Shown: positions 6,363 through 59,134 of the stretch, piece by piece
Position numbering within the stretch: position 1 is the first letter of the stretch
Layout of the letters: every line of letters starts with the position of its first letter
Origin: Dehalococcoidia bacterium
Lineage (GTDB): Bacteria; Chloroflexota; Dehalococcoidia; DSTF01; CAZFGZ01
Direction of reading: 5' to 3'
NCBI GenBank assembly: GCA_049678585.1
Contig: JBAUEL010000064.1
Coordinates: 1-63,852, forward strand
DNA: 63,852 nt
Notes under the pieces: generated by a model
What the model was told of the DNA's origin: nothing
Seen by the model: only the letters and a program-made list of their open reading frames with translations
Database searches by the model: none
Position numbers and translations under genes: made by a program

Positions 6363-7178
6363 TCAGCGCAGCCGGAGCCACCGTCGATACAGCTCGCGCC
6401 GGGAAAGGCCGTACCGTTTGGCGAGTTCGCCGGTGGCCTGCTGAGCGCGGACGCCCTGCGCCTTAAGGGCTCGCATCTCCGCGTCTACCTCTGGCAGGGT
6501 CGGCTTCCTGGCCGCCTCGCCGGCGCCCTCGATGACCAGGGTGAACTCGCCGCGCGGCTCGCCGAAGTGAGCCAGGGCCTCCTCTACCAAGCCCCGGAAG
6601 ATCTCTTCATAGGCCTTGGTGAGCTCGCGACAGATGGTTATGCGGCGGTTGCCCAGCTCGGCGGCGATGTCCTGGAGGGCTCCGCGCAGGCGGTGTGGCG
6701 ACTCGAAGGCGAGCAGTGTGTCAGGGAAGTCAGCCACGGCGTGGAGGAGGCGACGCCGCTGCCCGCCCTGGCGGGGCAGGAAGCCCAGGTAGTGGAAACG
6801 ACGCGTGGGAAGGCCGGAGACGGCCATCGCTGCCGTCAACACCGAGGGACCCGGCACAGGCGTCACCGAGAAGCCCGCCTCGCAGGCGGCCACCACCAGG
6901 TGGTAGCCGGGGTCGCTGATGGCGGGAGTGCCCGCCTCGGAGACCAGGGCGACATCGCCCCGGGCCAGCGTCGCCAGGATCTGTGGGGTGCGCTGTCGCC
7001 TGTTGCGGTCGGTGTAGCTGAGGAGAGGAGTGTGGATGTCGTAGCGGGAAAGCAGCTTGCGGGTGGTGCGGGTATCCTCGGCAGCGATGAGGGAGACCTC
7101 GCGGAGGACCCGCAGGGCCCGCAGGGTCACGTCCTCCAGGTTTCCGATGGGGGTGGCTACCAGGTAGAGGATACCCAT
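6363..7178 (-). CDS. rsmI: 16S rRNA (cytidine1402-2'-O)-methyltransferase
   Basis: LYLVATPIGNLEDVTLRALRVLREVSLIAAEDTR is a tetrapyrrole-methylase-fold RsmI signature. Confidence 0.9.
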   Translation of the reverse strand: MGILYLVATPIGNLEDVTLRALRVLREVSLIAAEDTRTTRKLLSRYDIHTPLLSYTDRNRRQRTPQILATLARGDVALVSEAGTPAISDPGYHLVVAACEAGFSVTPVPGPSVLTAAMAVSGLPTRRFHYLGFLPRQGGQRRRLLHAVADFPDTLLAFESPHRLRGALQDIAAELGNRRITICRELTKAYEEIFRGLVEEALAHFGEPRGEFTLVIEGAGEAARKPTLPEVDAEMRALKAQGVRAQQATGELAKRYGLSRRELYRRWLRLR

Positions 7179-28158: not shown

Positions 28159-28491
28159 CTAGCCGACCTCAATACCGCGCTTGGCGTGGCGGGCCAGGAA
28201 GTCGTTGATGCTCCTGACGATTCCCTGCGCGCGAGATATCTCGTACTCGGTGGCGCACTGGTTACACATGTGGAACTCAGCGTAGGTGACGAAGCCAGCA
28301 GCGAACCGGGGTCGGCGGCAGACGCTACAGGGGCGGGTACTTTGAGGGGGTACCCCTCGCTCCAGGTCCTCCTCTACGAAGAGGTGCATAGCCGTCTTGA
28401 TGGCATCTACCTGGCGCTGGGTGAGGCTGTTTGGCGGCTGTGGAACAGCGACATATCGTGCTGACCCGCGGTACCGGCTGCCCTTAATCAT
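28159..28491 (-). CDS. hypothetical 110-aa protein with two CxxC pairs (zinc-ribbon-like), riboswitch-preceded
   Basis: ATG preceded by GGAGGTGA at 7 nt. CSVC ... CNQC motifs. It is the only ORF downstream of the minus-strand ydaO-type leader. The overlapping plus-strand ORF 28123..28464 lacks any start context. Confidence 0.6.
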   Translation of the reverse strand: MIKGSRYRGSARYVAVPQPPNSLTQRQVDAIKTAMHLFVEEDLERGVPPQSTRPCSVCRRPRFAAGFVTYAEFHMCNQCATEYEISRAQGIVRSINDFLARHAKRGIEVG

Positions 28492-28611
28492 CTCGGTTCA
28501 CCTCCGCTACCATATTCGACCGAACTTGCGTCCGTCCTGAGAAGGCAGCAGCGCGTGCCCCGCCGCACAGCGAAGACCAGAGGCGGTAGCCCCTGGTCCA
28601 CAGTGCTACTC

Positions 28612-28750
28612 CTCCTTCTTATGCCTACGGGGTTAGCTGTCGGGTTCGGCTCAAAGGAGTTCGCCTACCCCCCGATGTCACCGGGAGGATTCACCCCAGA
28701 GAGATTGGGTCCCCCGTTCCCCAAATGGAGATTCGGCTGCCTATTCAGTT
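28612..28750 (-). promoter_or_regulatory. candidate c-di-AMP riboswitch (ydaO-yuaA type), copy 2
   Basis: The minus strand reads ...gaataggcagccgaatctccatttggggaacgggggacccaatctctctggggtgaatcctcccggtgacatcggggggtaggcgaactcctttgagccgaacccgacagctaaccccgtaggcataag. The blocks cgggggaccca, ggggtgaatc and ccgaacccgacagctaaccccgtaggc match my recollection of the ydaO motif and match copy 1. Confidence 0.75.
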
Positions 28751-53432: not shown

Positions 53433-53598
53433 GGAGACGGCTCCTGGTTGTTGAACCCGGCGAAGGCCGCCCCAGGGGCAGCCTTAATTTATACACCATG
53501 GGGGCGTTAGGCTGAAGGGCCTTCATACATTGCGCCGCGCGTACCCGGTGGACGATAATATTGGCACGTGGAGCGAGACTCGGGGCTGGAACGGCTCT

Positions 53599-54891
53599 AT
53601 GAGCGACAAACGGACCCCGCAGGGACGTCCCATCGATTCGACCATGCACCACTCGGAGAAGGCGGACCAGGACACCCCCCCGAAGCCCTCGCTGGCCGCG
53701 GTGGACTTCGACCGGACTCCCTTTACCTTAGCCTGGGAGGTCACCCGGGCCTGCGCCCTCAAGTGCGTCCACTGTCGCGCCGAGGCCCAGCCCAAGCGCG
53801 ACCCCCGCGAGCTCAACACGGAGGAAGGCTTCCGCCTCATTGACCGCGTTGTGGAGATCGGTGGGCCCATCCTGATCATCACCGGCGGCGATCCCATGAT
53901 GCGCCCCGACCTCTTCGAGCTCATCCACTACGCCAGCGACGCCGGCCTGCGCGTGGCCTTCTCTCCCAGCGCCACCTCCCTGGTGACCCGCCAGCGCCTT
54001 CGCAAGGCCCGCGACGCCGGGGTCAGCCGCACCCATATCAGCCTGGACGGAGCCACCGCCGAAAGTCACGACAGCTTCCGCCAGAGCCCCGGCTCTTTCC
54101 GGCGCACCATGGAGATAATGAACGACCTGCGGGACCTGGGGATGTCCCTGCAGATCGGCACCACGGTCAGCCGCTACAACCTCCATGAGCTGGACCAGAT
54201 CGCCGACATCGCCGCCCAATACGGCGCGGTCATGTTCAACGTGTTCTTCCTGGTGCCCACCGGCCGTGGCAGCCACGACGATGTGATCTCACCCGAGGAG
54301 CACGAGCAGGTCTTCCACTGGATGTATGACCTCTCCAAGACCGCCCCCTTCGACGTGCGCAGCACCGCCGCCCAGCACTACCGCCGGGTGGTCATCCAGC
54401 GCCGCCAGCAGGAGCAGGCCGAGGCCGCCCGCGGGCAGGGGGCCGCGTCCAGCGGCCCTGCCGACAGCATCTATCTCACCGGCGCCGGCTTCAGCTTCGC
54501 CGATGGCCTGGGCCAGTCAGCCATGAAAGGGGTCAACGACGGCAACGGCTTCGCCTTCGTCAGCCACATCGGCGATGTGTACCCCTCTGGGTTCCTCCAG
54601 CTACCGGCAGGCAACGTCCGCAGGCAGTCCTTCGTGGACATTTACCGCCACTCGCCCCTCTTCCGAGACCTGCGCGACTATTCCAAGCTCAAGGGCAAGT
54701 GCGGGCTGTGCGACTTCCGGGACGTCTGCGGGGGCTCCCGAGCCCGTGCCTTTGGCGTCACCGGCGACTACCTGGAATCGGAGCCCTACTGCGTCTACGT
54801 CTCCCCCGCCGCACGCGAGGCGGGCGTGGGCGCGCCCGCGCCGCCCAAACCCGCCGGCAGCCCTCACATCCCGTCGACTGTGCGGGACTAG
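53599..54891 (+). CDS. radical SAM/SPASM protein, NirJ/AhbC/AhbD-like
   Basis: CALKCVHC (CX3CX2C) and a C-terminal SPASM region ...KGKCGLCDFRDVCGGSRA. Adjacent to siroheme-decarboxylase-like genes. The ATG at 53599 is preferred. Confidence 0.75.
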   Translation: MSDKRTPQGRPIDSTMHHSEKADQDTPPKPSLAAVDFDRTPFTLAWEVTRACALKCVHCRAEAQPKRDPRELNTEEGFRLIDRVVEIGGPILIITGGDPMMRPDLFELIHYASDAGLRVAFSPSATSLVTRQRLRKARDAGVSRTHISLDGATAESHDSFRQSPGSFRRTMEIMNDLRDLGMSLQIGTTVSRYNLHELDQIADIAAQYGAVMFNVFFLVPTGRGSHDDVISPEEHEQVFHWMYDLSKTAPFDVRSTAAQHYRRVVIQRRQQEQAEAARGQGAASSGPADSIYLTGAGFSFADGLGQSAMKGVNDGNGFAFVSHIGDVYPSGFLQLPAGNVRRQSFVDIYRHSPLFRDLRDYSKLKGKCGLCDFRDVCGGSRARAFGVTGDYLESEPYCVYVSPAAREAGVGAPAPPKPAGSPHIPSTVRD

Positions 54892-54901
54892 TCGACAGGC
54901 C

Positions 54902-55375
54902 ATGGCCATCAAGCTGGACCGCGGCGACCGCATCCTCCTGAATCACGCCCAGGGCGACTTCCCCGTGTGCCCGCGCCCCTTCCGGAAGCTGGGAGAGCGC
55001 ATGGGCATGAGCGAAGAGGAGGTGCTGTCACGCCTGCGACGGCTGGTGGATGCGGGCGCCATCAGCCGCTTCGGGCCCATCCTGGACGCTCCCCGGCTGG
55101 GCGGCGAACGAACCCTAGTCGCCATGCACGTACCTCCAGAGCGCTTCGACGAGGTGGCCGACTTCATCAACAAGCTGCCGTCTATCTCCCACAACTACGA
55201 GCGCGAGCATCACCTCAACCTGTGGTTCGTCATCTCCTCGGAGGACGAGACGGAGATCGCCCGCACCCTCCGGACCATCGAGGAGAAGACCAGCCTGGAG
55301 GTCCTGAACCTGCCCTCGGAGGAGGAGTACTTCCTAGAGGTCAGGTTCCAGTTCCCGGTGGACGATGCTGACTGA
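54902..55375 (+). CDS. ahbA: siroheme decarboxylase subunit-like (AsnC/Lrp-type, NirD/L or AhbA-like)
   Basis: LDRGDRILLNHAQGDFPVCPRPFRKLGERMGMSEEEVLSRLRRLVDAGAISRFGP...ISHNYEREHHLNLWF. Confidence 0.7.
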   Translation: MAIKLDRGDRILLNHAQGDFPVCPRPFRKLGERMGMSEEEVLSRLRRLVDAGAISRFGPILDAPRLGGERTLVAMHVPPERFDEVADFINKLPSISHNYEREHHLNLWFVISSEDETEIARTLRTIEEKTSLEVLNLPSEEEYFLEVRFQFPVDDAD

Positions 55376-55844
55376 CCAAGAGCGCCAACTCCTTCTAGCC
55401 ATCCAGGACGGCCTTCCCCTGGTGCCTCGGCCCTACGCTGAGGTGGCCGAGCGCATCGGGACCAACGAGGAGCGGGTGCTGGAGCTGGTCGTTTCCCTCC
55501 TCCAGCGGGGCGCGATCAAGCGTATCGGCGCCGTCCCCAATCCCCACGCCCTGGGCATCACCGCCAACGGCATGGCCGTGTGGGACGTGCCCGACGAGCG
55601 GGCCAGCGAGGTGGGGAGACGCCTCGGCCGCATGCCCGAGGTCACCCACTGCTATCGGCGGCCCCGTCGCCCGCCCGCCTGGCCATACAACCTCTTCGCC
55701 ATGATCCATGGGCGCAGCCGCCAGGAGGTGCAGGAGATCGTCGCGCGCATCAGCGAGGAGCTAAACATCGCCGGCCATCCGCACGAGGTCCTGTTCAGCA
55801 CGCGCCTGCTAAAGAAGCGGGGCACGCGGCTCACCTCGCCCTAG
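55365..55844 (+). CDS. ahbB: siroheme decarboxylase subunit-like (NirG/H or AhbB-like)
   Basis: ERQLLLAIQDGLPLVPRPYAEVAERIGTNEERVLELVVSLLQRGAIKRIGAV...VTHCYRRP...YNLFAMIH. Overlaps the previous gene by 11 nt. Confidence 0.7.
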   Translation: MLTDQERQLLLAIQDGLPLVPRPYAEVAERIGTNEERVLELVVSLLQRGAIKRIGAVPNPHALGITANGMAVWDVPDERASEVGRRLGRMPEVTHCYRRPRRPPAWPYNLFAMIHGRSRQEVQEIVARISEELNIAGHPHEVLFSTRLLKKRGTRLTSP

Positions 55845-55983: not shown

Positions 55984-56012
55984 TTGACATCGACGCTCCC
56001 CTGCGCTACTAT
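55984..56012 (+). promoter_or_regulatory. sigma-70-like promoter (TTGACA-17-TACTAT) of the riboswitch-glgC transcript
   Basis: ttgaca at 55984-55989, 17-nt spacer, tactat at 56007-56012. Confidence 0.6.
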
Positions 56013-56023
56013 GCAGCCAAGCA

Positions 56024-56180
56024 CTGCCAATCGAATAGAGAGCGGTTTTATTGGCCGAATTCCCTGAGAAAGGGAAGCGGGGGACCCATATTCTGGGGTG
56101 AATCTCCCGGCTCGTCCGGCGAGTAGGGCAAGTTCTCCCAGCCCGAACCCGTCAGCTAACCCCGTAGGCACATAGGGAGG
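56024..56180 (+). promoter_or_regulatory. candidate c-di-AMP riboswitch (ydaO-yuaA type), copy 1
   Basis: ...ccaatcgaatagagagcgg...gccgaattccctgagaaagggaagcgggggacccatattctggggtgaatctcccggctcgtccggcgagtagggcaag...cagcccgaacccgtcagctaaccccgtaggcacatagg. It has the same conserved blocks as copy 2, with different stem sequences. Confidence 0.75.
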
Positions 56181-56198
56181 CCTGTCCCGCGCGCATTG

Positions 56199-56232
56199 CG
56201 AGCCCGGGCGTCGGCCTTGGGCTCGTTTTCTT
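56199..56232 (+). terminator. intrinsic terminator (riboswitch expression platform)
   Basis: cgagccc-gggcgtcggcctt-gggctcg followed by ttttctt. It lies about 65 nt upstream of glgC. Confidence 0.7.
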
Positions 56233-56292
56233 AGCTGCGCGTGTTCCCCCGACCATCGGCTGTCCGCTGCTCAGACCACGCAGTGACGGGAG

Positions 56293-57588
56293 GTGACTGC
56301 GATGGAAAAAGTTATCGCCATGATCCTCGCAGGAGGCGAGGGTGACCGGCTGAGTGTCCTCTCGGAGGAGCGCGCCAAGCCTGCGGTGACCTTCGGTGGG
56401 CGCTACCGCGTCATTGACTTCACCCTGAGCAACTGCGTCAACTCGGGCATCACCCGGGTGGGGGTGCTGACCCAGTATCGGCCCCGCTCCCTGAACGAGC
56501 ACATCGGTATCGGTCGCCCCTGGGACCTGGACCGGGGCGGCGCCGTCTCCCTCCTCCAGCCCTACCTGGGCCGGGAGAGCTCGGACTGGTATTCTGGCAC
56601 CGCCGACGCCGTCCACCAGAACCTCTACTTCGTTGAGGAGTCACAGGCCGAACAGGTGATCATCCTGGCAGGCGACCACGTCTACAAGATGGCCTATGAC
56701 GAACTCATCGCCTTCCATCGCTCCCAGGGGGCCGACGTGACCATCGCCGTCTATCAGGTGCCCCCAGATGAGGCCAGCCGCTATGGCGTCATCACCTATG
56801 ATGACACCGATGCGATCATCGCCTTCGACGAGAAGCCCACAGAGCCGCGCTCTAACCGGGCCTCCATGGGTGTCTACGTCTTCAACAAAGACGTGCTCAT
56901 AGAGCGACTGGTGGCAGACGCGCAGGAACCCACCACCCACGACTTCGGCCACGATATCATCCCCGCCATGGTGGGAGACCCCTGCTACAGACTGTGCGGC
57001 TATCGGTTTAAGGGGTACTGGCGGGACGTGGGCACCATCGAGTCCTACTTCAACGCCAACATGGACCTGCTGGAGGACACGCCAGAGCTGGACCTGTACG
57101 ACCCTGAAACCCTCGTTCGTACCCAGATGACCGCCCTGCCCCCGGCCCGCATCGGCCGCCGCGCCTACCTCAGCCGCTCCCTGGTCGACCTTGGCTGCGT
57201 CATCGAAGGGCATGTGGAGCACTCGGTTCTCTCCCCCGGCGTGCACGTGGAGGAGGGAGCGGTCGTGCGAGACGCCATCATCTTCGAGGGCTGCCACATC
57301 GAATCGGGCGCTATCATCGACCATTCCATCTTGGACAAGGAGGTCCAAGTCGGCAAGAACTGCTATGTCGGCTACGGAGATGACTTCTCCCCCAACAGGG
57401 ACCGTCCAGACATCGTCCACTGCGGCATCACCATCGTGGGCAAGCGGGCCCAGTTGTCCGCATCCACCCGCGTAGGGCACAACTGCGTCATCGGCCCAAG
57501 CGTGGTGGTGGAAGGCATCGAGGACAACTACATCCCCAGCGGAGAAACCCTCCGCGTGCCACCCGAGAAGGTCCCCTATTCGGTGTAG
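56293..57588 (+). CDS. glgC: glucose-1-phosphate adenylyltransferase
   Basis: [12 protein letters not shown] (G-rich loop), [20 protein letters not shown] and a C-terminal left-handed beta-helix region. The ATG at 56302, with GGGAGG 8 nt upstream, is the likelier start. Confidence 0.92.
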
Positions 57589-57606: not shown

Positions 57607-57634
57607 TTGACACCACCCCGCCTTCCGATATGAT
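57607..57634 (+). promoter_or_regulatory. promoter candidate (TTGACA-16-TATGAT) upstream of tldD
   Basis: ttgaca at 57607-57612, 16-nt spacer, tatgat at 57629-57634. Confidence 0.5.
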
Positions 57635-57691: not shown

Positions 57692-59134
57692 GTGAAAGAC
57701 CTGGTCATGCGGGCCCTAGACACCGCCAGAACCCGAGGCGCTTCCTACGCCGACGTGCGGGTAGTCCGCCGCAGAAGCGAGTCGGTAACGGTCCGCAACG
57801 AGAATGTGGAGGGGCTCGCCGCCGATGAGACCCTGGGCTTCGGCGTGCGGGTTATTGTGGAGGGCTTCTGGGGCTTCGCCAGCAGCCACCGCATGTCCCT
57901 AGAGGAGGCCTCTCGGGTAGCGGCCCAGGCCGTGCGCGTCGCCAGGGCCTCTGCCACCGTGCGGGGCCCCCGCGCGGACATCGGCCCGCCCAGCCCGGTA
58001 ACCGACACCTATCGCAGCACCTTCCAGAAGGACCCGTTCGCCGTCTCGCTGGAGGACAAGATCGCGCTGCTCCTGAAGGCCAACGAATCCATGCAAAGGA
58101 TTCAGGGCATCGTCATGGCCGAGTCAAACCTGTACTGCCAGCGGGAGGAGAAGACCTTCGGCAGCAGCGAGGGCAGCTACATCGAGCAGGAGATGGTGGA
58201 GACGGGCTGCGGCATCGAGGCCACCGCCGTCAGCGAGGGAGAGGTGCAGCAGCGCTCCTACCCCAACAGCGTGGGCCGCCACCAGGGCACCGAGGGCTGG
58301 GAGTTCGTGGAGCGCTGGGACCTGCCCGCCAACGCCACCCGCGTGGCGGAGGAGGCCGTGGCTCTGCTTACGGCCAAGCCCTGCCCCCCCGGCGTGACCA
58401 CCCTCATCCTGGACGGCAGCCAGGTGGCCCTCCAGGTCCACGAGTCCTGCGGCCACGCCATCGAGCTGGACCGGGTGCTGGGGACGGAGGCGGCCTTCGC
58501 CGGCACCAGCTTCCTCACCACCGACAAGCTGGGCAGCTTCCAGTACGGCTCCCCCGTGGTCAACCTCACCGCCGACGCTACCATCCCCGGCGGCCTGGGC
58601 ACCTTCGGCTACGACGACGAGGGCATCCCCGCCCACCGCACCCCCATCGTGCGCGACGGCATCTTCTTGGGCTATCTCACCTCCCGGGAGACAGCGGCCG
58701 CCCTGGGCCAGACCAGCAACGGCGCCATGCGCGCCTCCGGCTGGAACCGCATCCCCCTTATCCGCATGACCAACGTAAACCTGGAGCCGGGCGAGTGGAC
58801 CCTCCAAGACCTCATCGCCGACACCGACGAAGGCATCTACATGGAGACCAACCGAAGCTGGAGCATCGACGACCGACGCCTCAACTTCCAGTTCGGCACG
58901 GAGATCGCCCGCGAGATCAAGAAGGGCAAGCTGGGCGAACTCATCAAGAACGCCACCTACACCGGCATCACCCCCCAGTTCTGGGGGAGCTGCGACGCCG
59001 TGTGCAACCGCGACCACTGGGTAGTGTGGGGCACCCCCAACTGCGGCAAGGGCCAGCCCGAGCAGGTGGCCCACACCGGCCACGGCGCCGCCCCCGCCCG
59101 CTTCCGCAACGTCCAGGTGGGCATGATGAGGTAG
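57692..59134 (+). CDS. tldD: TldD family metalloprotease (GTG start)
   Basis: ASYADVRV...GFGVRV N-domain and the HESCGH zinc motif (HExxxH). Confidence 0.9.
   Translation: MKDLVMRALDTARTRGASYADVRVVRRRSESVTVRNENVEGLAADETLGFGVRVIVEGFWGFASSHRMSLEEASRVAAQAVRVARASATVRGPRADIGPPSPVTDTYRSTFQKDPFAVSLEDKIALLLKANESMQRIQGIVMAESNLYCQREEKTFGSSEGSYIEQEMVETGCGIEATAVSEGEVQQRSYPNSVGRHQGTEGWEFVERWDLPANATRVAEEAVALLTAKPCPPGVTTLILDGSQVALQVHESCGHAIELDRVLGTEAAFAGTSFLTTDKLGSFQYGSPVVNLTADATIPGGLGTFGYDDEGIPAHRTPIVRDGIFLGYLTSRETAAALGQTSNGAMRASGWNRIPLIRMTNVNLEPGEWTLQDLIADTDEGIYMETNRSWSIDDRRLNFQFGTEIAREIKKGKLGELIKNATYTGITPQFWGSCDAVCNRDHWVVWGTPNCGKGQPEQVAHTGHGAAPARFRNVQVGMMR

What the first reader, a model, noticed from the sequence alone, without database searches (positions are those of the whole stretch)
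55984..56310. Second ydaO-type riboswitch with complete promoter-aptamer-terminator unit in front of glgC
All of the following lie on the plus strand in order:
- a near-consensus promoter (TTGACA-17-TACTAT, 55984-56012)
- the aptamer-like region at 56024-56180, with blocks GCGGGGGACCCA, CUGGGGUGAAUC, GAGUAGGGC and CCCGAACCCGUCAGCUAACCCCGUAGGCA
- a strong intrinsic terminator (56199-56232: 7-bp outer stem plus inner GGC/GCC pairs, then UUUUCUU)
- glgC (ADP-glucose pyrophosphorylase) about 65 nt later

This is the architecture of a transcriptional OFF switch. glgC catalyses the committed step of glycogen synthesis and is not part of the classical ydaO regulon as I know it. c-di-AMP has been linked to glycogen metabolism at the protein level in cyanobacteria (SbtB-GlgB). 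An RNA-level link to glgC would connect osmotic/K+ signalling to carbon storage.
Basis: partly seen in the sequence, partly recalled or inferred. Interest (0 to 1): 0.75.

Follow-up and report, generated by a model that had tools for sequence, protein, structure and literature searches.

The report
c-di-AMP riboswitch controlling glgC
A genuine c-di-AMP-sensing RNA switch sits directly in front of the ADP-glucose enzyme gene glgC, and related genomes show that it normally controls a trehalose-synthase/glgC operon, so it most likely links osmotic signalling to making a protective sugar rather than simply to glycogen storage.

Summary
Window 56043-56184 (+) matches Rfam RF00379 (c-di-AMP riboswitch) at 94.8 bits against a gathering score of 38 (E 4e-21). 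It lies behind a TTGACA-17-TACTAT promoter (55984-56012). A -22 kcal/mol hairpin with UUUUCUU follows (56198-56232), then an SD and a bona fide glgC (56302-57588).

The context changes the reading. In 10 related Chloroflexota ("Dehalococcoidia") MAG loci, the same promoter-aptamer-platform unit precedes a treT-like, treT-like, glgC operon. The treT-like genes are trehalose glycosyltransferring synthase homologues, whose characterised family members accept ADP-glucose. Only the window's own small clade (window, L084/L083, L081, L001) has the switch abutting glgC. That clade keeps the same flanks (ahbB ... tldD) and is nested among treT-bearing lineages, so the two treT genes were lost. The leader is still under purifying selection: 86-93% identity, against 62-69% for the neighbouring spacer and 76-80% at fourfold sites.

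The most likely mechanism is a transcriptional OFF switch. Bound c-di-AMP locks the 3' tail into the aptamer pseudoknot. Without ligand, that tail forms an antiterminator with the terminator's loop and 3' arm.

This is a new regulon member of a known riboswitch class. It fits the known theme of c-di-AMP control of osmolyte homeostasis. Interest is moderate.

The parts
55984..56012 (+). Sigma-70-type promoter: -35 TTGACA (55984-55989), 17-nt spacer, -10 TACTAT (56007-56012). The inferred transcription start is near 56019.
   Evidence: 10/12 matches; 2 sites found vs 0.3 expected. The -35 and -10 are conserved in L001 and L081. A TTGACA promoter sits at the same distance upstream of every orthologous aptamer.
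56043..56184 (+). c-di-AMP riboswitch aptamer (RF00379), full length.
   Evidence: 94.8 bits, E 4.2e-21, model positions 1-134. In an alignment of 15 related aptamers, 10 of 30 predicted pairs show compensatory changes.
56134..56139 (+). Hairpin-loop strand UCUCCC of the aptamer pseudoknot. It pairs with 56175-56180.
   Evidence: Loop/tail complementarity is present in all 15 aptamers and covaries: UCUCCC:GGGAGG here, CUCUC:GAGAG in most relatives, CCUUCUC:GAGAAGG in L016.
56175..56180 (+). 3' tail GGGAGG, the pseudoknot partner. It overlaps the 5' strand of the antiterminator, so it is the proposed switching sequence.
56177..56218 (+). Predicted antiterminator. GAGGCCUGUCC (56177-56187) pairs with GGGCG (56206-56210) and GGCCUU (56213-56218). 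A small apical hairpin lies at 56189-56203.
   Evidence: This is the MFE of the nascent RNA ending at 56218-56220 (-20.3 to -20.7 kcal/mol). Analogous GAGGC:GCCUC hairpins occur in L004, L005, L007 and L013. Inference; not shown by covariation.
56198..56232 (+). Intrinsic-terminator-like hairpin (56198-56226, dG -22.1 kcal/mol) and U-rich tract UUUUCUU (to 56232).
   Evidence: Homologous hairpins with UUUUUU or UUUCUUU tracts follow the aptamer in L005, L007 and L011. The U tract is weaker in L081 and L083 and degraded in L001.
56188..56243 (+). Outer helix CGCGCGCA (56188-56195) / UGCGCGUG (56236-56243). It encloses the terminator and can form only in read-through transcripts.
   Evidence: One compensatory G-C to A-U change in L001. 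Function unknown.
56288..56304 (+). Shine-Dalgarno GGGAGG (56288-56293) and ATG start (56302-56304) of glgC. The SD lies in the loop of a small hairpin (56279-56301).
   Evidence: The SD is predicted to be unpaired. The start is confirmed by alignment to homologues: [12 protein letters not shown] vs consensus MKRVVALILAGG.
56302..57588 (+). glgC, glucose-1-phosphate adenylyltransferase (428 aa).
   Evidence: NF003670 481 bits vs 470; TIGR02091 426.1 vs 424.9. (NTP_transferase plus LbH domains). (thousands of homologues, named GlgC where a source names them).

Best explanation
The element is a functional c-di-AMP riboswitch of the ydaO class. It acts in cis as a transcriptional OFF switch on glgC.

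**Mechanism**
- Transcription starts about 7 nt after the -10 box, near 56019.
- When c-di-AMP is bound, the aptamer (56043-56184) is locked. This includes the pseudoknot between loop UCUCCC (56134-56139) and tail GGGAGG (56175-56180).
- The tail then cannot pair downstream. The hairpin 56198-56226 forms, and RNA polymerase terminates in the UUUUCUU tract near 56232.
- When c-di-AMP is low, the free tail and the following bases (56177-56187) pair with 56206-56218. That covers the 3' end of the terminator's 5' arm, its loop and the first bases of its 3' arm.
- This antiterminator forms first during transcription and allows read-through into glgC.

**Physiology**
- The unit descends from a riboswitch-controlled treT-like, treT-like, glgC operon that is still present in sister lineages.
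- In that operon GlgC would supply ADP-glucose to TreT-family trehalose synthases.
- Low c-di-AMP is the state associated with a need for osmolytes or K+. It would therefore switch on synthesis of ADP-glucose and the compatible solute trehalose.
- The window's clade lost the two treT genes but kept the switch, which now gates ADP-glucose supply alone.

**Shown vs inferred**
- Shown: aptamer identity, gene identity, operon context, clade distribution, and selective constraint on the leader.
- Inferred: ligand binding, the termination mechanism, the direction of regulation, and the trehalose role.
For: **Aptamer**
- Scores 94.8 bits over the full model.
- Helices and pseudoknot covary across 15 related copies.

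**Promoter, terminator and gene**
- Promoter and terminator found by scan.
- No other promoter-like site between the terminator and glgC.
- glgC identity.

**Comparative context**
- The same promoter-aptamer-platform unit lies upstream of treT-like A, treT-like B, glgC in L002-L007, L011, L013, L014 and L018.
- L005, L007 and L011 have canonical terminators.
- TreT-like B matches P. horikoshii TreT over its full length (446 bits). TreT-like A scores 274 bits.
- TreT enzymes accept ADP-glucose (PMC11046441).

**The direct junction is a derived state**
- Flanks are shared. ahbB lies upstream in L002, L007 and L015; tldD lies downstream in L012, L020-22, L027, L028, L030 and L082.
- The direct clade is monophyletic, nested among treT-bearing lineages and sister to L082.
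- The expression platform resembles that of L011.

**Selective constraint**
- The leader is 86-93% identical between window and L001/L081.
- The adjacent spacer is 62-69% identical, and fourfold-degenerate glgC sites are 76-80% identical.

**Switching model**
- Nascent-RNA folding gives the antiterminator up to 56220 and the terminator afterwards. Blocking the tail leaves the terminator.
- The prototype B. subtilis ydaO riboswitch acts by c-di-AMP-promoted termination (PMC9960051).
Against: - No experiment has been done. Ligand binding and termination are inferred.
- The terminator-like scan alone is not above chance (1 found vs 1.4 expected).
- The U tract is imperfect here and is degraded to GUGUCGCUU in L001.
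- With the tail free, the terminator is still thermodynamically favoured (-31 vs -20.7 kcal/mol), so the model needs kinetic control.
- Antiterminator pairing is supported by recurrence, not by covariation.
- About half of the treT-treT-glgC operons with intact upstream sequence lack any RF00379. The association is lineage-restricted.
- The TreT-like proteins fall below the NCBIfam equivalog cut-off (494 and 281 bits vs 775). Their substrates are not established.
- No treT gene is present in this 64-kb window. What ADP-glucose feeds in this organism is unknown.
Confidence: 0.72

Rival explanations
1. The riboswitch is real and controls glgC, but not by intrinsic termination. The hairpin at 56198-56226 would belong to a structured leader, and c-di-AMP would act through translation, Rho or RNA stability, as reported for actinobacterial members.
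For: - The U tract is degraded in L001 and weak in L081 and L083, while the hairpin and an enclosing outer helix are conserved with one compensatory change.
- Orthologous leaders in L002, L003, L013, L014 and L018 lack a U tract. L002 shows an anti-SD/SD pairing, CCCUCAGGCC / GGCCUGAGGAGG.
- The S. coelicolor rpfA and C. glutamicum nlpC riboswitches lack canonical terminators, and the latter acts on translation (PMC9960051).
Against: - The window itself has UUUUCUU directly after a -22 kcal/mol hairpin.
- L005, L007 and L011 have textbook terminators at the homologous place.
- The glgC SD is about 105 nt from the aptamer and is predicted unpaired whether or not the aptamer is blocked.
Confidence: 0.15
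2. The switch exists to put glycogen (carbon storage) under c-di-AMP control, with GlgC as the committed step, independently of any compatible-solute role.
For: - In the window's clade the switch now controls glgC alone and is still under purifying selection.
- In several relatives glgC is followed by a GH57 branching enzyme (GH57 plus BE_C) and a second GH57 protein, so alpha-glucan genes are part of the neighbourhood.
Against: - The ancestral and commoner arrangement places two TreT-family genes, not glgA or glgB, between the switch and glgC.
- No glycogen synthase or branching enzyme is in the window.
- More distant GlgC genes without treT neighbours (54-59% identity, about 100 loci) never carry the switch. 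This rests on Rfam for L032-L052 and a motif screen for the rest.
Confidence: 0.3
3. The aptamer is an evolutionary leftover of the treT deletion and no longer regulates anything useful.
For: - The junction is derived.
- Riboswitch loss or decay has happened repeatedly in sister lineages. RF00379 is absent in 16 operons with intact upstream DNA, and L031 may keep a remnant.
Against: - The aptamer still scores 93-95 bits in all members of the direct clade.
- The whole leader is more conserved than neutral proxies across lineages whose GlgC differs by 12-13%.
- Promoter, pseudoknot and hairpin are all retained.
Confidence: 0.05

Closest known systems
Bacillus subtilis ydaO (kimA) c-di-AMP riboswitch, the prototype of RF00379
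   Same: Same aptamer family, with a full-length covariance-model match. It lies in a 5' UTR behind a sigma-70-type promoter and is followed by a terminator hairpin. OFF logic, with ligand promoting termination, is the model adopted here (PMC9960051).
   Different: The downstream gene is a cytoplasmic sugar-nucleotide enzyme (glgC) rather than a K+, amino-acid or osmoprotectant transporter. The host is an uncultured Chloroflexota lineage with 66.5% G+C, and the U tract is imperfect.
Actinobacterial ydaO-type riboswitches (S. coelicolor rpfA, C. glutamicum nlpC)
   Same: High-G+C hosts, the same aptamer class, and expression platforms that are not always canonical terminators.
   Different: Those control cell-wall hydrolases, and the C. 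glutamicum example acts on translation (PMC9960051; PMC10117811). Here a terminator-like hairpin with a U-rich tail is present and the target is carbohydrate metabolism.
c-di-AMP riboswitch regulons for 'synthesis and transport of osmoprotectants' (Nelson et al. 2013, as summarised in PMC4284465 and PMC7288161)
   Same: Same physiological theme if ADP-glucose feeds trehalose: the second messenger for osmotic and K+ homeostasis repressing osmolyte supply at the RNA level.
   Different: I could not read the primary paper. No searchable paper names glgC or treT as targets. The operon treT-like, treT-like, glgC and its Chloroflexota distribution appear undescribed.
TreT trehalose glycosyltransferring synthase (P. 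horikoshii 2x6q; Thermoproteus uzoniensis 6zj4)
   Same: The two genes that separate the riboswitch from glgC in relatives are full-length homologues, at 446 and 274 bits. TreT uses NDP-glucose, including ADP-glucose, plus glucose (PMC11046441).
   Different: They fall below the NCBIfam TreT equivalog cut-off. There are two diverged paralogues (about 40% identity to each other) of untested specificity. They are absent from the window itself.
Protein-level c-di-AMP control of glycogen metabolism in cyanobacteria
   Same: Connects c-di-AMP with alpha-glucan metabolism.
   Different: That is a protein-protein mechanism acting on the branching enzyme. This is an RNA switch acting on transcription of the ADP-glucose-forming enzyme. 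Not examined with tools here.

Membership tests
RF00379 c-di-AMP (ydaO/yuaA) riboswitch | Covariance-model score at or above Rfam's gathering threshold over the full model | tested here: met
   94.8 bits vs 38, E 4.2e-21, model 1-134/134.
RF00379 c-di-AMP (ydaO/yuaA) riboswitch | Conserved helices supported by covariation, plus the pseudoknot between the hairpin loop and the GAGAGG-type 3' tail | tested here: met
   10 of 30 predicted pairs have compensatory changes among 15 related copies. Loop/tail complementarity is present in all and covaries.
RF00379 c-di-AMP (ydaO/yuaA) riboswitch | Sense orientation in the 5' UTR of a gene, with an expression platform | tested here: met
   Promoter 55984-56012, aptamer, hairpin plus U tract 56198-56232, SD and glgC start at 56302. 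No other promoter-like site in between.
RF00379 c-di-AMP (ydaO/yuaA) riboswitch | Specific binding of two c-di-AMP molecules | not testable with these tools
   Needs in-line probing, ITC or a structure. Only the conservation of the family's invariant blocks is seen.
RF00379 c-di-AMP (ydaO/yuaA) riboswitch | Downstream gene from the usual regulon (K+, amino-acid or osmoprotectant transport, cell-wall hydrolases, osmoprotectant synthesis) | tested here: inconclusive
   glgC is not reported as a target. Relatives put TreT-like genes in the same operon, which would fit 'osmoprotectant synthesis'.
Rho-independent (intrinsic) terminator | G+C-rich hairpin immediately followed by a U tract | tested here: met
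   11-bp stem (7 G-C), dG -22.1 kcal/mol, then UUUUCUU. Caveats: the U tract is interrupted and not conserved in L001, and the scan hit count is not above shuffles.
Rho-independent (intrinsic) terminator | Mutually exclusive antiterminator involving aptamer sequence | tested here: inconclusive
   Predicted in nascent-RNA folds and recurrent in L004, L005, L007 and L013. There is no covariation proof, and the terminator is the more stable state.
GlgC, glucose-1-phosphate adenylyltransferase | Passes curated equivalog HMM cut-offs; N-terminal NTP-transferase domain plus C-terminal left-handed beta-helix | tested here: met
   NF003670 481 bits vs 470; TIGR02091 426.1 vs 424.9. PF00483 plus hexapeptide/LbH domains.
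TreT, trehalose glycosyltransferring synthase (genes in relatives, not in the window) | Full-length homology to characterised TreT, and the curated equivalog cut-off | tested here: inconclusive
   Full-length matches to 2x6q and 6zj4 (446 and 274 bits) and the PF21269 TreT_GT1 domain. NF041139 scores are 494 and 281 bits against a cut-off of 775.

The most novel reading that the evidence does not exclude
After the two treT genes were lost, selection kept the c-di-AMP switch on glgC alone. In this clade the osmotic/K+ second messenger would then directly gate the cell's entire ADP-glucose supply at the RNA level, and with it glycogen/alpha-glucan storage. That would be an RNA-level coupling of turgor signalling to carbon storage that has not been described for this riboswitch class.
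Probability: 0.3. Interest if true: 0.6.

Novelty: new member of a known kind. Interest (0 to 1): 0.42.

Why it matters
c-di-AMP is the main bacterial signal for K+ and osmolyte balance. Its riboswitch is known mostly in front of transporters and cell-wall enzymes.

This case shows the same switch in front of a sugar-nucleotide/trehalose-synthase operon in uncultured Chloroflexota. It also shows the switch retained on glgC alone in one clade. That extends the regulon from osmolyte uptake to de novo synthesis of a compatible solute from central carbon.

It gives a concrete, testable link between c-di-AMP, ADP-glucose, trehalose and possibly glycogen. It also provides a natural series of orthologous leaders with different expression platforms (terminator, apparent SD sequestration, decayed). 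Such a series is useful for studying how riboswitch platforms evolve.

It does not reveal a new kind of RNA or mechanism.

Tried and rejected
1. **Post-terminator decoy.** The segment 56246-56261 (CCCCCG...UCGGCU) might act as a decoy for the aptamer's 5' strands. This pairing is predicted in MFE and alifold folds. However, the duplex energy is no better than shuffles, and the two nested 6-mers arise in 4% of shuffles. I treat it as chance.
2. **Anti-SD role for the same segment.** Rejected, because the SD is predicted unpaired in all folds.
3. **A separate glgC promoter downstream of 56232.** None was found by the scan.
4. **Recent duplication of the other window riboswitch.** The aptamer identity of 83% is no higher than to unrelated copies, and the platforms differ, whereas the platform resembles the L011 treT leader.
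5. **Sub-threshold RF00379 remnants in eight riboswitch-less treT leaders.** None appeared at E<=1. Only L031 shows a weak local similarity to the aptamer's 3' part (z 3.3).
6. **TreT, GH57 or other glucan genes in the window.** tblastn found none. Pfam on 20 further ORFs gave only housekeeping genes.
7. **Primary papers on the regulon.** Nelson 2013 (PMC3830699) and Block 2010 (PMC2916388) are not held, so I relied on reviews.
8. **Locating the deletion junction.** Aligning the leader to treTB-glgC junctions showed no recognisable homology.
Full report
**1. Checking the observation**

- A scan of the whole window against Rfam 15 at gathering thresholds gives four hits: two tRNAs and two copies of RF00379, the c-di-AMP (ydaO/yuaA) riboswitch.
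- One copy lies at 56043-56184 on the + strand: 94.8 bits against a gathering score of 38, E 4.2e-21, covering model positions 1-134. The other lies at 28748-28607 on the - strand (95.8 bits).
- The consensus scan finds TTGACA-17-TACTAT at 55984-56012. It finds 2 promoter-like sites in 3.5 kb against 0.3 expected from shuffles.
- The same scan finds one terminator-like site: stem 56198-56226 with 11 pairs, followed by TTTCTT. By that scan alone the terminator is not above chance (1.4 expected).
- The hairpin has dG -22.1 kcal/mol.
- The next ORF (ATG 56302 to 57588, 428 aa) passes both NCBIfam GlgC equivalog cut-offs (481 vs 470 bits; 426.1 vs 424.9). It has the NTP-transferase plus beta-helix architecture.
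- Alignment with homologues fixes the start at 56302, not at the upstream in-frame GTG.

**2. Surroundings**

- Upstream on the same strand are alternative-haem genes: a radical-SAM AhbD-like protein (53530-54891) and AhbB (55365-55844).
- Downstream are tldD (57692-59134, with its own TTGACA-16-TATGAT promoter at 57607-57634), a zincin gene, pmbA and yjbQ.
- Twenty further ORFs across the window are housekeeping genes: metG, hisS, relA/spoT, carAB, pyrB, prfA, an MttB-family methyltransferase and others.
- No glycogen or trehalose gene other than glgC is present in the window.
- The closest GlgC proteins come from uncultured Chloroflexota annotated as Dehalococcoidia. The window has 66.5% G+C.

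**3. Related loci**

I fetched 80 genome loci and 80 metagenome loci encoding GlgC relatives, plus three contigs by exact protein look-up. I scanned L001-L052, L081-L093 and L113 with Rfam. The rest I screened with a core-motif pattern that agreed with Rfam wherever both were run.

Three states emerge among GlgC proteins at 60% identity or above:

(a) **Riboswitch directly before glgC.** This covers the window, L084 and L083 (98% GlgC identity), L081 (88%) and L001 (87%). Where the contigs reach, all share the same ahbB ... tldD flanks. L081 shows the full synteny rSAM, ahbA, ahbB, switch, glgC, tldD, zincin, pmbA, yjbQ.

(b) **Riboswitch, then two TreT-like genes, then glgC.** This covers L002-L007, L011, L013, L014 and L018. 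The aptamer lies about 2.6 kb upstream of glgC.

(c) **The same treT-treT-glgC operon (16 loci) or treT-glgC (5 loci) behind a TTGACA promoter, with no RF00379.** Eight of these were rescanned and gave no hit even at E<=1.

More distant GlgC genes (54-59% identity; Tepidiformaceae and others) have neither treT neighbours nor the switch.

**4. The intervening genes**

- Both intervening genes carry the TreT_GT1 domain plus GT4 domains.
- They match the solved TreT trehalose synthases of P. horikoshii and Thermoproteus uzoniensis over their full length, at 446 and 274 bits.
- They stay below the NCBIfam equivalog cut-off, so I call them TreT-like.
- TreT enzymes make trehalose from NDP-glucose, including ADP-glucose, and glucose (PMC11046441).
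- GlgC in the same operon is therefore the obvious donor-forming enzyme.
- In several of these loci glgC is followed by a GH57 branching enzyme (GH57 plus BE_C) and a second GH57 protein. Alpha-glucan metabolism is therefore also nearby.

**5. Direction of change**

- ahbB lies immediately upstream of the switch in L002 and L007, and upstream of the switch-less operon in L015.
- tldD lies immediately downstream of glgC in L012, L020-22, L027, L028, L030 and L082.
- The window's arrangement equals that arrangement minus the two treT genes.
- In a neighbour-joining tree of GlgC, the direct clade is monophyletic. It is sister to L082 (treT-treT-glgC-tldD) and nested among treT-bearing lineages.
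- The window's expression platform (GAGGCCUGUCC ... GCCCGGGC ... GGGCU ... UUUCUU) resembles that of the L011 treT leader. It does not resemble the window's other riboswitch.
- I conclude that the junction arose by loss of the treT pair. I could not locate the deletion junction.

**6. Is the switch still in use?**

- Between the window and L001 or L081, the promoter-to-start leader is 86% and 93% identical.
- The spacer just upstream is 62% and 69% identical.
- Fourfold-degenerate sites of glgC are 76% and 80% identical.
- The aptamer scores 93-95 bits in every member of the direct clade.
- This argues for purifying selection and against a dead relic.

**7. Mechanism**

- Across 15 related aptamers, 10 of 30 predicted pairs show compensatory changes.
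- The loop/tail pseudoknot is complementary in all and covaries. It reads UCUCCC:GGGAGG in the window (56134-56139 with 56175-56180) and CUCUC:GAGAG in most relatives.
- Folding the nascent RNA from 56166 shows that, up to 56218-56220, the best structure pairs 56177-56187 with 56206-56218 (-20.3 to -20.7 kcal/mol). This partner region covers the 3' end of the terminator's 5' arm, its loop and the first bases of its 3' arm.
- Once the rest of the 3' arm is made, the terminator wins (-31 kcal/mol in total).
- Blocking the tail, as the ligand-stabilised pseudoknot would, leaves the terminator.
- The antiterminator's 5' strand overlaps the pseudoknot tail at 56177-56180, so the two are mutually exclusive.
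- The same logic recurs in relatives. The tail GAGGC pairs with GCCUC in the terminator of L004, L005, L007 and L013 and, by inspection of the aligned sequences, with GCUUC in L011.
- L005, L007 and L011 have canonical terminators with UUUUUU or UUUCUUU.
- This matches the known OFF, termination-promoting behaviour of the B. subtilis prototype (PMC9960051).
- Weak points:
  - The model needs kinetic control.
  - It lacks covariation proof.
  - The U tract is degraded in L001.
  - Other orthologues (L002, L003, L013, L014, L018) lack U tracts, and L002 looks like an SD-sequestering platform.
- An outer helix (56188-56195 with 56236-56243) encloses the terminator and has one compensatory change in L001. 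Its role is unknown.

**8. Physiological reading**

- c-di-AMP riboswitches are reported next to genes for cell-wall metabolism and for 'synthesis and transport of osmoprotectants' (PMC7288161; PMC4284465).
- In Firmicutes they repress K+ uptake when c-di-AMP is high.
- An OFF switch on treT-treT-glgC fits that scheme. Low c-di-AMP would permit ADP-glucose and trehalose synthesis.
- No searchable paper mentions glgC or treT as targets. The primary regulon papers were not available.
- For the window's clade, which lacks linked treT genes, the fate of ADP-glucose is open. It could be trehalose made by unlinked enzymes, glycogen, or both.

**9. Verdict**

- The element is a real, probably functional c-di-AMP riboswitch and a member of a known family.
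- Its downstream gene is unusual. That gene becomes understandable once the ancestral trehalose-synthase operon is seen.
The carbon-storage interpretation is possible, but it is not the best-supported one.
- Novelty: new member of a known kind. Interest: moderate.

Noticed in passing
window 28607-28748 (-) and 28159-28491 (-): The other RF00379 copy (95.8 bits) precedes a 110-aa Cys-rich ORF (MIKGSRYRGS...; CxxC ... CxxC) with no Pfam family. The next gene on the opposite strand looks like a cyclophilin-type PPIase, judged from sequence motifs only. This target is not part of the usual regulon.
   Followed up: partly
L002-L005, L007, L013 (e.g. L005 1168-1378): In these treT-associated aptamers the small P3 hairpin is replaced by a 60-70 nt insertion. 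Its apex carries a conserved GCAACGGUUYUGCAA-like motif. The aptamers are 200-212 nt long yet still score 67-89 bits.
   Followed up: no
L031 1271-1305; also L009, L015, L016, L023, L027 leaders (about 1150-1450): treT-treT-glgC operons without RF00379 still have 150-400 nt leaders behind consensus TTGACA promoters, with no Rfam hit even at E<=1. L031 keeps a weak remnant of the aptamer's 3' part and GAGGCTTC tail (z 3.3). This suggests riboswitch decay, or possibly another uncharacterised leader.
   Followed up: partly
L002 1384-1455: The orthologous riboswitch here has no U tract. Instead CCCUCAGGCC, directly after the aptamer, is complementary to GGCCUGAGGAGG, which contains the treT SD. 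This looks like a translational platform on an otherwise orthologous switch.
   Followed up: no
L002 5397-8481; L013 5325-8781; L011 5301-7211: glgC is followed by a GH57 branching enzyme (GH57 plus BE_C) and, in L002 and L013, a second GH57 protein. In that clade, trehalose-type and alpha-glucan genes sit in one neighbourhood.
   Followed up: partly
L033, L036, L037, L042, L047 (about 6660-6920); L045 5200-5463; L048 8101-8366; L051 4986-5256: T-box leaders (100-115 bits) lie 1.4-2.8 kb downstream of glgC in the Tepidiformaceae-type loci. They are unrelated to the finding.
   Followed up: no
L016 9073-9213 (-): Another RF00379 copy (85.2 bits) lies on the opposite strand about 3.8 kb downstream of glgC. 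It faces a gene I did not identify. The treT operon in this locus has no riboswitch.
   Followed up: no
window 56246-56261 vs 56053-56058 and 56078-56083: A post-terminator segment (CCCCCG ... UCGGCU) is complementary to the 5' strands of aptamer helices P1 and P2, and it dominates the MFE fold of the full leader. Its duplex energy is no better than shuffles, and the two nested 6-mers occur in 4% of shuffles.
   Followed up: yes
window 57607-57634 (+): A near-consensus promoter (TTGACA-16-TATGAT, 11/12 matches) lies between the glgC stop and tldD. No terminator-like site follows glgC, so tldD may receive both read-through and its own transcription.
   Followed up: no
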